Source: Escherichia coli
GTDB taxonomy: Bacteria > Pseudomonadota > Gammaproteobacteria > Enterobacterales > Enterobacteriaceae
Length of the DNA: 64,000 bases
Reading direction: 5' to 3' (one strand)
Assembly: GCF_030013205.1 (NCBI RefSeq)
Contig: NZ_CP122648.1
Of the stretch, positions 42,060-42,703 are shown one piece after another. Under the pieces are notes generated by a model. The model did no database searches, was not told where the DNA came from, and saw nothing but the letters and a program-made list of their open reading frames with translations. The translations under genes were made by a program, and so were the position numbers. The number at the start of each line of letters is the position of its first letter. Position 1 is the stretch's first letter.

Positions 42060-42140
42060 TATTGTCTCTGATTTCTGTTGTCGTCAACAGGCAACGTGCT
42101 ATCATCGAATGGTGTTCTATCCTACTCCGTGAGGTTTACC

Positions 42141-42398
42141 ATGCGTACAACCCAACAATTCAGCATTACATTAACTAACGAAATGGCTGACATGGTGCGC
42201 GCCCGTGTGGCTTCCGGTGCCTATGCTTCAGAAAGCGAGGTCATTCGTGAAGGGCTTCGCGCACTGAATGAGCGCGATAAAGCAATCGAAGCGTGGTTAA
42301 CGCATTCAGCCGCCCCCTCTCTTGATTCTATCCGCGAAACCCCAAACAACGGACGCTCCATTTCACAGGTTCGCGCCGCGATTCGATCCGGGAAGTAA
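42141..42398 (+). CDS. ParD-like ribbon-helix-helix antitoxin
   Basis: MRTTQQFSITLTNEMADMVRARVASGAYASESEVIREGLRALNERDKAIEAWL; RBS GAGG upstream. Confidence 0.75.
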   Translation: MRTTQQFSITLTNEMADMVRARVASGAYASESEVIREGLRALNERDKAIEAWLTHSAAPSLDSIRETPNNGRSISQVRAAIRSGK

Positions 42399-42403
42399 TC
42401 TGC

Positions 42404-42703
42404 ATGACATATGAAGTCATCATTACTCCTGAGGCCGAACAACAAATAATCAACCTGCACAGGTATATAACGGAGAAAGCAGGGAACGTCATTGCTGACA
42501 ATTATGCCAATGCGCTTCTTGATTATCTTGATGGGTTTTCTACATTCCCGCATCGGGGCAATAAACGCGATGATATTCGCCAGGGGATGCGGGTAACTCA
42601 TTTCCGCCACAGAACGATTATTGCTTTTGCCGTTGATAGCAGAAAAGTCTTTATTGTCGGTATCTATCATGGTGGGCAAAGTTATGAAACCGATTTCTTA
42701 TAA
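42404..42703 (+). CDS. ParE/RelE-superfamily toxin
   Basis: MTYEVIITPEAEQQIINLHRYI...; 99 aa, 5 bp after the antitoxin. Confidence 0.75.
   Translation: MTYEVIITPEAEQQIINLHRYITEKAGNVIADNYANALLDYLDGFSTFPHRGNKRDDIRQGMRVTHFRHRTIIAFAVDSRKVFIVGIYHGGQSYETDFL

What the first reader, a model, noticed from the sequence alone, without database searches (positions are those of the whole stretch)
42060..42703. ParD/ParE-like toxin-antitoxin pair inserted in opposite orientation in the nin-like region
A ribbon-helix-helix antitoxin (85 aa) and a ParE/RelE-fold toxin (99 aa) sit 5 bp apart on the plus strand, embedded among minus-strand early genes between the DUF968 gene and the HNH gene. This is the same position where, as I recall, K-12 Qin carries relBE-hokD. 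Prophage toxin-antitoxin modules can act in phage defence or prophage stabilisation.
Basis: partly seen in the sequence, partly recalled or inferred. Interest (0 to 1): 0.4.

Follow-up and report, generated by a model that had tools for sequence, protein, structure and literature searches.

The report
Prophage ParD–ParE toxin–antitoxin cassette
This is an ordinary, already-annotated two-gene ParD/ParE toxin–antitoxin operon, carried as a self-contained, backwards-facing cassette inside a decayed lambda-like prophage of E. coli.

Summary
An 85-aa ribbon-helix-helix ParD antitoxin (42141-42398) and a 99-aa ParE toxin (42404-42703) lie 5 nt apart on the + strand. Both flanks are minus-strand genes of the P-to-Q ("nin") region of a ~20.5-kb defective lambdoid prophage at tRNA-Ser.

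Profile, fold and partner evidence put the toxin in the ParE branch, not the RelE branch. The unit has a predicted extended -10 promoter, conserved operator-like boxes and a strong terminator hairpin. Both genes are under purifying selection.

The same cassette occurs in 364 of 5426 complete E. coli genomes and in a few Stx phages. RefSeq and PHROGs already name it as ParD antitoxin and RelE/ParE toxin, so it is known by annotation; I found no experimental study of it.

Relatives in Salmonella, Yersinia and Erwinia prophages sit in different slots but are always antiparallel to the surrounding phage genes, as a mobile "moron" would be.

The most likely mechanism is ParD autorepression plus neutralisation of a gyrase-poisoning ParE, which stabilises the element. 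This is inferred from the family, not shown.

One side observation: about 45 Stx phages keep only an orphan ParD, with parE cut off 14 nt into the gene.

The parts
42070..42140 (+). Promoter/operator leader of the cassette. Candidate -35 TTGTCG at 42078-42083. Extended -10 TGcTATCAT at 42097-42105. Palindrome CTGTTG-TCGT-CAACAG at 42075-42090, overlapping the -35. Conserved box TGTTCTATCC at 42113-42122. Shine-Dalgarno GAGG at 42131-42134.
   Evidence: Promoter scan, 9/12 match with TG; the scan found 3 sites against 2.3 +/- 1.7 in shuffles, so the match is not significant on its own. This stretch is 69-74% identical to the Yersinia, Salmonella and Enterobacter copies, although synonymous sites in the genes are saturated; identity left of 42070 drops to 22-51%. 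Invariant blocks: GTCGTCAA, TGCTAT, TGTTC.ATCC. Function as promoter or operator is inferred.
42141..42398 (+). parD: 85-aa ribbon-helix-helix antitoxin. Residues ~6-51 form the DNA-binding/dimerisation domain; residues ~52-85 are the presumed toxin-binding tail.
   Evidence: PF03693 1.6e-7; TIGR02606 1.5e-14, score 53.8 against cut-off 46.2. phrog_6494 'antitoxin' 1.8e-55. PDB ParD matches include 3kxe, 7b22, 6x0a and 8c24. RefSeq WP_040072796.1 'ParD family antitoxin'. pN 0.13-0.18 against pS 0.62-0.77.
42404..42703 (+). parE: 99-aa ParE-type toxin of the RelE/ParE superfamily.
   Evidence: PF05016 4.5e-10. phrog_5232 'toxin' 2.4e-43. A family profile hits only ParE structures: 6x0a 3.9e-12, 8c24, 7ycs, 3kxe, 5ceg, 6xrw, 5cw7, 7r5a. 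AF2 model pLDDT 89.8. The top 23 Foldseek hits are all ParE-type, TM 0.72-0.84. hhalign against E. coli RelE gives probability 1.1%. RefSeq WP_000220601.1.
42784..42820 (.). Intrinsic-terminator-like hairpin. Core stem GATCCCGGC 42787-42795 / GTCGGGATC 42806-42814, followed by T6 at 42815-42820. It lies between the converging parDE unit and the minus-strand 114-aa ORF.
   Evidence: RNA fold gives -20.7 kcal/mol on the + strand (z -4.2, 0 of 200 shuffles as good) and -14.8 on the - strand (z -3.9). The pattern scan missed it, probably because its 10-nt terminal loop (my reading of the sequence) exceeds the 3-8 nt limit. Function is inferred.
42058..43858 (.). Mosaic block shared at 98.6% with Stx phage ArgO145: parDE, the 114-aa ORF, the HNH gene and the DUF4014 gene. 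The left junction at 42058 coincides with the start of the cassette.
   Evidence: blastn of the window against ArgO145 and PA2 loci; annotation of ArgO145.

Best explanation
This is a bicistronic type II ParD-ParE toxin-antitoxin operon. It travels as an autonomous cassette (a 'moron') with its own promoter and terminator, set antiparallel in the P-to-Q early-right region of a defective lambdoid prophage.

Shown here:
- The two intact ORFs belong to the ParD and ParE families and are 5 nt apart.
- The toxin has a ParE-type fold rather than a RelE-type fold.
- Both genes are under purifying selection, and the upstream leader is conserved.
- A strong hairpin lies downstream.
- The cassette recurs in many temperate phages at different sites.

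Inferred from the family:
- ParD dimerises through its ribbon-helix-helix domain and binds operator sites around the -35 and start region, repressing the operon.
- The ParD C-terminal tail wraps and neutralises ParE.
- ParD is protease-labile. When synthesis stops, because the DNA is lost or transcription is shut off, free ParE poisons DNA gyrase and arrests growth.

The net effect would be to favour retention of this prophage segment. Exclusion of other phages is a possible secondary outcome.
For: - Family and fold.
- ParE rather than RelE: the profile hits only ParE structures, RelE-type RNases appear only at E > 2e-3 with TM 0.39-0.64, and hhalign against E. coli RelE gives 1.1%. A ParE of an IncP plasmid matches at 100% probability.
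- Partner: every homologue examined, 49-100% identical, has a ParD-type gene directly upstream.
- Predicted complex: in a linker-fused model, pTM is 0.74 and ParD residues 51-80 reach pLDDT 96-97, while the N-terminal strand, which needs a dimer partner, is at 60.
- Selection: pN 0.13-0.26 against pS 0.62-0.89.
- Leader: 69-74% identical across genera, against 22-51% just upstream.
- Promoter-like site and hairpin.
- Mobility and orientation: the cassette sits in the nin region here, the early-left region in ArgO145 and Yersinia, downstream of Q in Salmonella, and beside lysis genes in Erwinia. It is always opposed to the surrounding phage genes.
- Prevalence: 364 of 5426 E. coli genomes, chromosomes only.
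- Prophage-borne ParE-type modules that stabilise or regulate their prophage are documented: ParESO-CopASO (PMC8706911) and PfiT/PfiA (PMC7264888).
Against: - No experiment on this module was found, so toxicity, neutralisation, autorepression and the gyrase target are all inferred.
- Identity to structurally characterised ParE toxins is only 12-24%.
- Among the closest structural matches are ParE-type toxins known under other names (PrpT, PfiT); my recollection that their described roles differ from classical gyrase poisoning was not checked here.
- NCBIfam gave no toxin hit.
- The palindrome arms are only partly conserved in Yersinia, so the operator assignment is tentative.
- The promoter match is no better than shuffles give.
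- The fused-chain model returns no interface metrics.
- The prophage is already heavily deleted, so stabilisation has not prevented decay.
Confidence: 0.8

Rival explanations
1. The main role is anti-phage defence, by abortive infection or superinfection exclusion. An infecting phage shuts off host transcription or triggers ParD loss, which frees ParE and kills or arrests the cell before phage release.
For: The cassette sits in prophage accessory slots that also hold other toxin modules: relBE-hokD in Qin, rem-hokD in MS 69-1, hok in Erwinia. PHROGs files it under 'moron/host takeover'. About 45 Stx phages carry an orphan ParD 85% identical to this one, which could be a counter-measure. PMC12502783 raises the same idea for phi346 and phi349.
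Against: PADLOC-DB 2.0 gave no hit for either protein. My literature searches turned up no report of ParDE acting in phage defence. The hotspot argument is only an association.
Confidence: 0.25
2. The toxin is functionally a RelE-like ribosome-dependent mRNA endonuclease, not a gyrase poison. PF05016 and the RefSeq name cover both RelE and ParE.
For: The RefSeq name is 'RelE/ParE family toxin'. The protein is rich in basic and histidine residues, e.g. HFRHR at 66-70. The shared fold gives distant matches to YoeB, YafQ and HigB.
Against: The profile search finds nearly all ParE structures; the one exception is a weak match (E 1.6e-4, covering only part of the profile) to a chain deposited as RelE/StbE family. 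The 23 best structural matches are ParE-type at TM 0.72-0.84, while RelE-type RNases score TM 0.39-0.64. hhalign against E. coli RelE gives 1.1% probability. The partner is a ParD-type RHH antitoxin.
Confidence: 0.1
3. It is a silent passenger. The cassette is merely a leftover in a decaying prophage and is not expressed or active in this strain.
For: The prophage is only about 20.5 kb. It has truncated tail and replication genes, and no repressor or PR region was identified in the annotation. Nothing here measures expression.
Against: Both ORFs are intact. ArgO145's toxin is identical and its antitoxin differs at one residue. Both genes show purifying selection. The leader is conserved across genera. 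The unit has its own promoter-like site and terminator, so it would not depend on the missing phage promoters.
Confidence: 0.1

Closest known systems
Chromosomal and plasmid ParD-ParE systems with an RHH ParD: Caulobacter ParDE1 (3KXE), Mesorhizobium ParDE (5CEG, 6X0A), Vibrio cholerae ParDE2 (7R5A, 7B22), M. tuberculosis ParDE1 (8C24), P. aeruginosa ParDE (6XRW)
   Same: Gene order is antitoxin then toxin. The RHH ParD has a C-terminal toxin-binding tail. The toxin has a ParE fold, TM 0.78-0.84. These are found by both sequence-profile and fold searches.
   Different: Toxin identity is only 12-24%. This copy is carried in temperate phages of Enterobacterales. No biochemical data exist for it.
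Prophage-borne ParE-type modules: ParESO-CopASO of Shewanella CP4So (PMC8706911) and PfiT-PfiA of Pseudomonas Pf4 (PMC7264888; structure 9W3A)
   Same: A ParE-fold toxin with an upstream antitoxin sits inside a prophage. The documented roles are keeping the excised prophage and modulating phage production. PfiT is among the top structural matches.
   Different: The antitoxins, hosts and phage types differ (a P4-like element and a filamentous phage, against a lambdoid one here). Identity to PfiT is 16-17%.
relBE-hokD of the K-12 cryptic prophage Qin
   Same: Same genomic slot, just upstream of the DUF968 (ydfU) - Q genes of a defective lambdoid prophage, and the toxin comes from the same superfamily.
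   Different: RelE is not detectably related at profile level and acts on ribosome-bound mRNA (PMC11869752). RelB is not a ParD. relBE is co-oriented with ydfU, rem intervenes, and a hok gene is attached.
PaaR2-PaaA2-ParE2 three-component systems of E. coli O157:H7 (5CW7, 5CZE, 5CZF)
   Same: An E. coli ParE-fold toxin (the prophage location is from my own knowledge, not checked here). Structural match TM about 0.8.
   Different: Here the antitoxin is a ParD-family RHH protein and carries the DNA-binding domain itself. In the Paa systems, from my own knowledge, the antitoxin PaaA2 is a small disordered non-RHH protein. No third regulator gene follows here; the operon ends at a terminator. Toxin identity is 18-19%.
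ParDE of IncP plasmids (e.g. pA22732-IMP, WP_001260984 / WP_010890153)
   Same: Same toxin subfamily: 45.8% identity and hhalign probability 100%. The ParD partner lies upstream.
   Different: It is plasmid-borne, where the classical role is plasmid addiction. No close relative (>=60% identity) was found on plasmids, apart from one 1.4-Mb record labelled as an E. coli plasmid.

Membership tests
ParD antitoxin (PF03693 / TIGR02606) | Profile match above the curated cut-off | tested here: met
   PF03693 scores 32.1 bits against cut-off 21. TIGR02606 scores 53.8 bits against cut-off 46.2.
ParD antitoxin (PF03693 / TIGR02606) | N-terminal ribbon-helix-helix DNA-binding domain like solved ParD proteins | tested here: met
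   Residues 6-51 align to the RHH domains of 3kxe_C, 7b22_A, 6x0a_a, 8c24_C and 5ceg_A. Helices 13-24 and 31-66 appear in the model.
ParD antitoxin (PF03693 / TIGR02606) | Encoded directly upstream of the toxin and co-oriented with it | tested here: met
   5-nt gap. The same arrangement is seen in all homologous loci examined.
ParD antitoxin (PF03693 / TIGR02606) | Binds and neutralises the toxin; represses its own promoter | not testable with these tools
   Evidence is indirect only. ParD 51-80 reach pLDDT 96-97 in the fused model, pTM 0.74. The leader carries conserved operator-like elements.
ParE toxin (ParE branch of the RelE/ParE superfamily, PF05016) | Profile match above the curated cut-off | tested here: met
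   PF05016 scores 40.4 bits against cut-off 23, covering profile positions 1-89 of 89. NCBIfam gave no hit.
ParE toxin (ParE branch of the RelE/ParE superfamily, PF05016) | ParE-type fold: a strand, a long two-helix hairpin and a three-stranded sheet, closest to solved ParE toxins | tested here: met
   Model elements are E4-7, H9-26, H28-46, E62-67, E71-78 and E81-89, pLDDT 89.8. The top 23 Foldseek hits are all ParE-type. The profile hits nearly only ParE structures in the PDB.
ParE toxin (ParE branch of the RelE/ParE superfamily, PF05016) | Toxic when free; inhibits DNA gyrase | not testable with these tools
   Inferred from family members: RK2 ParE (Jiang et al. 2002, cited in PMC11869752) and the P. 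aeruginosa and M. tuberculosis ParE toxins (PMC6368863, PMC4906023).
RelE-type mRNA interferase | Detectable homology or closest fold to RelE, YoeB, YafQ or HigB | tested here: not met
   hhalign of the family profile against E. coli RelE gives probability 1.1%. RelE-type structures match only at E > 2e-3 with TM 0.39-0.64.
Three-component PaaR-PaaA-ParE system | A separate regulator gene, plus a non-RHH PaaA antitoxin | tested here: not met
   The antitoxin is an RHH ParD. No third + strand gene with a family hit follows. A terminator hairpin lies 81 nt after parE.
Phage 'moron' (autonomous accessory cassette) | Own promoter and terminator, set between phage genes, at variable positions among related phages | tested here: met
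   A promoter-like site and a hairpin are present, both predictions. The cassette is antiparallel to the flanking phage genes in 7 prophage contexts at 4 different genome positions. PHROGs category is 'moron'. GC content is not distinctive, 0.44-0.52.
Catalogued anti-phage defence system (PADLOC-DB 2.0) | Match to a defence-system protein model | tested here: not met
   No hit for either protein at E <= 0.01.

The most novel reading that the evidence does not exclude
The complete parDE in resident prophages and the orphan parD in about 45 Stx1a/Stx2a phages (PA2, PA8, F765, VT2phi_272, phi346 and phi349) may be two sides of one interaction.

The orphan ParD keeps an RHH domain 47/47 identical to this one and an 87%-identical leader. 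Its toxin-binding tail differs at 13 of 38 residues, and parE is cut off 14 nt into the gene.

On infection, the orphan could neutralise the resident ParE, acting as anti-addiction or anti-defence. Alternatively, it could only repress the resident promoter and so trigger ParE release. A classical antitoxin used by a phage in this way has, according to PMC12502783, no verified example.
Probability: 0.12. Interest if true: 0.55.

Novelty: already known. Interest (0 to 1): 0.2.

Why it matters
On its own this matters little. It is a pipeline-annotated member of one of the best-known toxin-antitoxin families, sitting in a typical prophage accessory slot.

It is a useful, clean example of a toxin-antitoxin moron that moves between different slots of lambdoid phages as a unit of about 640 bp with its own control region. 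It also shows that the DUF968-proximal slot is a recurrent landing site for toxin modules.

If the cross-talk between the orphan ParD and the resident ParE were real, it would give a concrete, testable case of a phage-borne classical antitoxin acting against a prophage-borne toxin in pathogenic E. coli.

Tried and rejected
- PADLOC scan: no hits.
- NCBIfam scan of the toxin: no hits.
- Rfam scan of the whole window: nothing in or near the module, only IS009, the cspA thermoregulator and tRNA-Ser elsewhere.
- Composition profile: no GC or skew anomaly marks the cassette.
- The repeat finder at seed 6 / minimum length 7 missed the 6+4+6 palindrome. I read it by eye and checked it against the alignment, where it is only partly conserved.
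- The pattern scan missed the terminator; it was confirmed by folding.
- My first mixed alignment for the fused ParD-ParE model (A3) misplaced the ParE-only rows onto ParD and was discarded. I rebuilt it with linker anchors as A4.
- Foldseek with the fused model added nothing beyond the ParE matches.
- dS could not be estimated for most pairs because synonymous sites are saturated, so I report pN and pS instead.
- I considered a three-component Paa-type system and rejected it, because there is no third gene and the antitoxin is an RHH ParD.
- I considered the TTG start at 42078 (106 aa) and rejected it. Homologues are mostly 85 aa, the SD and ATG at 42141 are conserved, and that start would lie inside the promoter.
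- The 68-aa antitoxin call in RefSeq for ArgO145 looks like a late-start misannotation.

Full report
**1. What is in the sequence**

The + strand carries two adjacent ORFs. The first is listed as 42078..42398 from a TTG. The biologically sensible start is the ATG at 42141, which gives 85 aa. It is preceded by GAGG at 42131-42134. Homologues are mostly 85 aa (82-99 among those listed), and ATG/GTG is conserved at that position in eight aligned loci.

The second ORF is 42404..42703, 99 aa. Five nucleotides, 42399-42403, separate the stop of the first from the start of the second. A GGGAAG purine run lies just upstream of the second start, so translational coupling is plausible.

Both flanks are minus-strand genes:
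- 41733..42005/42059, phrog_1212, function unknown
- 42902..43246, 114 aa, function unknown
- further out, DUF968 (40682..41731), RusA and antiterminator Q on one side, and HNH, DUF4014, DUF977, DUF1627 and replication protein P on the other

The one correction is that DUF968 and HNH are second neighbours, not immediate ones.

**2. Where the window comes from**

The window is E. coli chromosome. Apart from one IS1 insertion, which the window lacks, it is 99.97-99.98% identical to strain K_EC180, NZ_CP062203. The order is rutC-hyaA, tRNA-Ser (31976-32060), a prophage, then yccA-sulA.

A 100-nt repeat at 32004-32103 and 52435-52537 (91% identical) marks the attachment sites, so the prophage is about 20.5 kb. 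It is clearly defective:
- Only fragments of tail genes and a holin remain.
- The O-like replication gene is truncated, and ydfC follows it on the opposite strand.
- No repressor or PR region was identified in the annotation.
- The integrase ORF is intact in the window (51274..52293, 339 aa, PF00589) but frameshifted in K_EC180.

The minus strand from P (45737..46402) down to Q (39648..40319) is the early-right operon. The pair thus sits in the nin position, facing against it.

**3. Identity of the two proteins**

*Antitoxin.* It matches PF03693 ParD_antitoxin (1.6e-7) and TIGR02606 (1.5e-14), both above curated cut-offs, and phrog_6494 'antitoxin' at 1.8e-55. Residues 6-51 align to the ribbon-helix-helix domains of solved ParD proteins from Caulobacter, Vibrio, Mesorhizobium, M. 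tuberculosis and a 63-aa chain deposited as 'Antitoxin ParD' (7ycv).

*Toxin.* It matches PF05016 (4.5e-10, full-length) and phrog_5232 'toxin' at 2.4e-43.

PF05016 and the RefSeq name 'RelE/ParE family toxin' do not separate gyrase poisons from mRNA interferases, so I tested this in four ways:
- A full-database search found 1145 relatives at E <= 1e-3. A profile of 87 of them (A1) hits nearly only ParE structures in the PDB: 6x0a 3.9e-12, 8c24, 7ycs, 3kxe, 5ceg, 6xrw, 5cw7/5czf and 7r5a.
- An AlphaFold model from that alignment is confident (pLDDT 89.8, pTM 0.80). Its order is strand, two long helices, then three strands.
- Its 23 best Foldseek matches are all ParE-type toxins, TM 0.72-0.84. 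YoeB, YafQ, HigB and RelE appear only at E > 2e-3 with TM 0.39-0.64.
- Profile comparison with E. coli RelE gives 1.1% probability, whereas a ParE from an IncP plasmid gives 100%.

The toxin is therefore ParE-type by sequence profile, by fold and by partner. Its activity was not and cannot be tested here.

**4. Evidence that the pair is a working unit**

*Selection.* Between the E. coli, Yersinia, Salmonella and Enterobacter copies, synonymous sites are saturated (pS 0.62-0.89). Nonsynonymous differences remain at 0.13-0.26 for both genes, which indicates purifying selection.

*Predicted complex.* I modelled a linker-fused ParD-ParE with eight natural pairs plus unpaired homologues. It gives pTM 0.74. 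The ParD tail (residues 51-80) is its most confident part, at pLDDT 96-97. The N-terminal strand, which needs a second ParD chain, is at 60. This fits the known way ParD wraps ParE, but the tool reports no interface scores, so it counts as indirect support only.

*Leader.* The 71 nt upstream of parD (42070-42140) are 69-74% identical even to the copies whose coding synonymous sites are saturated. Identity drops to 22-51% immediately to the left. Within this stretch are:
- a promoter-like site, TTGTCG, 16 nt, TGcTATCAT, which is an extended -10
- a 6+4+6 palindrome over the -35, at 42075-42090
- invariant blocks GTCGTCAA, TGCTAT and TGTTC.ATCC

These are good candidates for the promoter and the ParD operator. 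However, the palindrome arms are imperfect in Yersinia, and the consensus scan alone is not significant (3 found against 2.3 expected).

*Terminator.* Eighty-one nucleotides after parE lies a hairpin followed by T6 (42784-42820). It folds at -20.7 kcal/mol, z -4.2, and it also folds on the other strand at -14.8, so it could stop both converging transcripts.

**5. Distribution and mobility**

The 701-nt query is found in 364 of 5426 complete E. coli genomes, always on chromosomes. In 327 of them at least 80% of the query is covered. Only 172 genomes share the wider 3.6-kb context.

Four phage records, covering ArgO145 and two Stx2a phages, carry the full module. The toxin is 100% identical and the antitoxin 98.8%. 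There it lies in the early-left region next to an anti-repressor and near int. The shared block, window 42058-43858 at 98.6%, begins exactly at the cassette's left edge.

Homologues at 62-72% identity lie in several other settings:
- Yersinia prophages, near a P22-type anti-repressor or Erf/int
- Salmonella prophages, directly after Q
- an Erwinia prophage, between lysis genes and ORF6N/hok
- an Enterobacter island with an integrase and IS66

In every prophage case the unit opposes the surrounding phage genes. In Yersinia it does so together with one extra downstream ORF. More distant relatives (49-51%) lie in unremarkable contexts but always have ParD upstream. On plasmids, apart from one 100%-identical record labelled as an E. 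coli plasmid, only relatives at 53% identity or less exist.

This is the behaviour of a mobile accessory cassette, and PHROGs already classes both families as 'moron'.

**6. The slot**

MG1655 shows ydfT(Q)-ydfU(DUF968)-rem-hokD-relE-relB, so the position is analogous. There, however, the module runs in the same direction as ydfU. In strain MS 69-1 the slot between DUF968 and HNH holds rem-hokD, and the annotation columns of several other genomes list hokD or a NirD/YgiW/YdeI stress-protein gene near DUF968. The DUF968-proximal slot is thus a recurrent site for toxin or stress cargo.

**7. Mechanism and role**

The best-supported reading is a classical type II ParDE operon. ParD represses the promoter and sequesters ParE. 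Loss of ParD synthesis releases ParE, which in characterised family members poisons DNA gyrase: RK2 ParE (cited in PMC11869752), P. aeruginosa ParE (PMC6368863) and M. tuberculosis ParE2 (PMC4906023).

Prophage-borne ParE-type modules are known to maintain or regulate their prophage. Examples are ParESO-CopASO (PMC8706911) and PfiT/PfiA (PMC7264888).

My estimates:
- A functional ParDE toxin-antitoxin unit: about 0.8-0.9.
- Gyrase as the target: about 0.6. Identity to solved ParE toxins is only 12-24%, and some ParE-type toxins among the matches (PrpT, PfiT) may, as I recall, act differently.
- Stabilisation or selfish retention as the main role: about 0.4.
- Phage defence: about 0.25. PADLOC gave no hit, and none of the papers my searches returned appeared to report ParDE defence.

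**8. Side observation: an orphan ParD in Stx phages**

Forty-five Stx2a/Stx1a phage records have a ParD 83-86% identical to this one but no ParE. They include PA2, PA8, F765, VT2phi_272, phi346 and phi349.

In PA2, homology with the window ends at 42417, fourteen nucleotides into parE. What follows is a 65-aa ORF and a HigA-like HTH gene.

The orphan's first 47 residues are identical to the window's, with 8 synonymous and 0 nonsynonymous changes. Thirteen of its last 38 residues differ, pN/pS 0.43. Its leader is 87% identical.

A 2025 paper already noted orphan ParD and HigA genes in phi346 and phi349 and wondered about anti-defence (PMC12502783). What this analysis adds is that a cognate-looking complete module exists in other E. 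coli prophages, including this one. That makes cross-neutralisation or cross-repression directly testable.

**9. Verdict**

The object is a known, database-annotated kind of module that has not been studied experimentally. Interest is low, with a modest upside from the orphan-antitoxin link.

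Noticed in passing
L006 (phage PA2, NC_028449) 3001-3978; homology with the window ends at 42417: About 45 Stx2a/Stx1a phages carry an orphan ParD, 83-86% identical to this one, with parE cut off 14 nt into the gene. It is followed by a 65-aa ORF and a HigA-like HTH gene. The RHH domain is 47/47 identical to the window's ParD, and the C-terminal tail has 13 of 38 changes. The orphan genes were already remarked on in PMC12502783.
   Followed up: partly
window 32004-32103 and 52435-52537: A ~100-nt direct repeat (91% identical) overlaps the 3' part of tRNA-Ser. It marks attL and attR of a ~20.5-kb defective lambdoid prophage between hyaA and yccA. Tail genes are fragmentary, the O-like replication gene is truncated, and no repressor or PR region was identified in the annotation.
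   Followed up: partly
window 51274-52293 (+): The integrase ORF is intact in the window (339 aa, PF00589) but is annotated as frameshifted in the otherwise near-identical strain K_EC180. The 744-aa Rv2179c-like exonuclease ORF (48753-50987) also forms one long open reading frame here but is a pseudogene in K_EC180.
   Followed up: partly
window ~38900-38914: K_EC180 has an IS1 insertion of about 770 bp at this point, inside a 167-aa prophage ORF. The window lacks it, so the window comes from a sister strain.
   Followed up: no
window 41974-42105 (-): A 43-aa minus-strand ORF, annotated in RefSeq as hypothetical protein WP_001342258.1, overlaps the parD promoter region and the mosaic junction at 42058. 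It has no PHROG hit. A weak divergent promoter-like match (42087 to 42058, minus strand) shares the same palindrome.
   Followed up: no
window 32555-32753 (-): An Rfam IS009 RNA family match (223 bits, gathering score 117) lies within the tail-fibre-assembly pseudogene remnant at the left end of the prophage.
   Followed up: no
window 46692-48435: ydfC and dicB (a cell-division inhibitor) are present on the + strand. Rfam finds no DicF sRNA between them. Instead, a 185-aa minus-strand ORF with no Pfam hit (47046-47606) occupies that interval.
   Followed up: no
L002 (ArgO145, NC_049918) 4382-4588: RefSeq annotates the ArgO145 antitoxin as 68 aa starting at an internal Met. The conserved 85-aa start with its Shine-Dalgarno is at 4331, so this is probably a start-site misannotation.
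   Followed up: partly
L008/L009 (Yersinia) 5425-5826: In the Yersinia prophage copies, an extra 133-aa + strand ORF with no Pfam hit follows parE in the same orientation. It may be additional cargo of the cassette.
   Followed up: no
window 37072-38157 (-): A 361-aa N6/N4 DNA methylase (PF01555) lies in the prophage late region, with no restriction partner noted in the region. It is probably an orphan phage methyltransferase.
   Followed up: no
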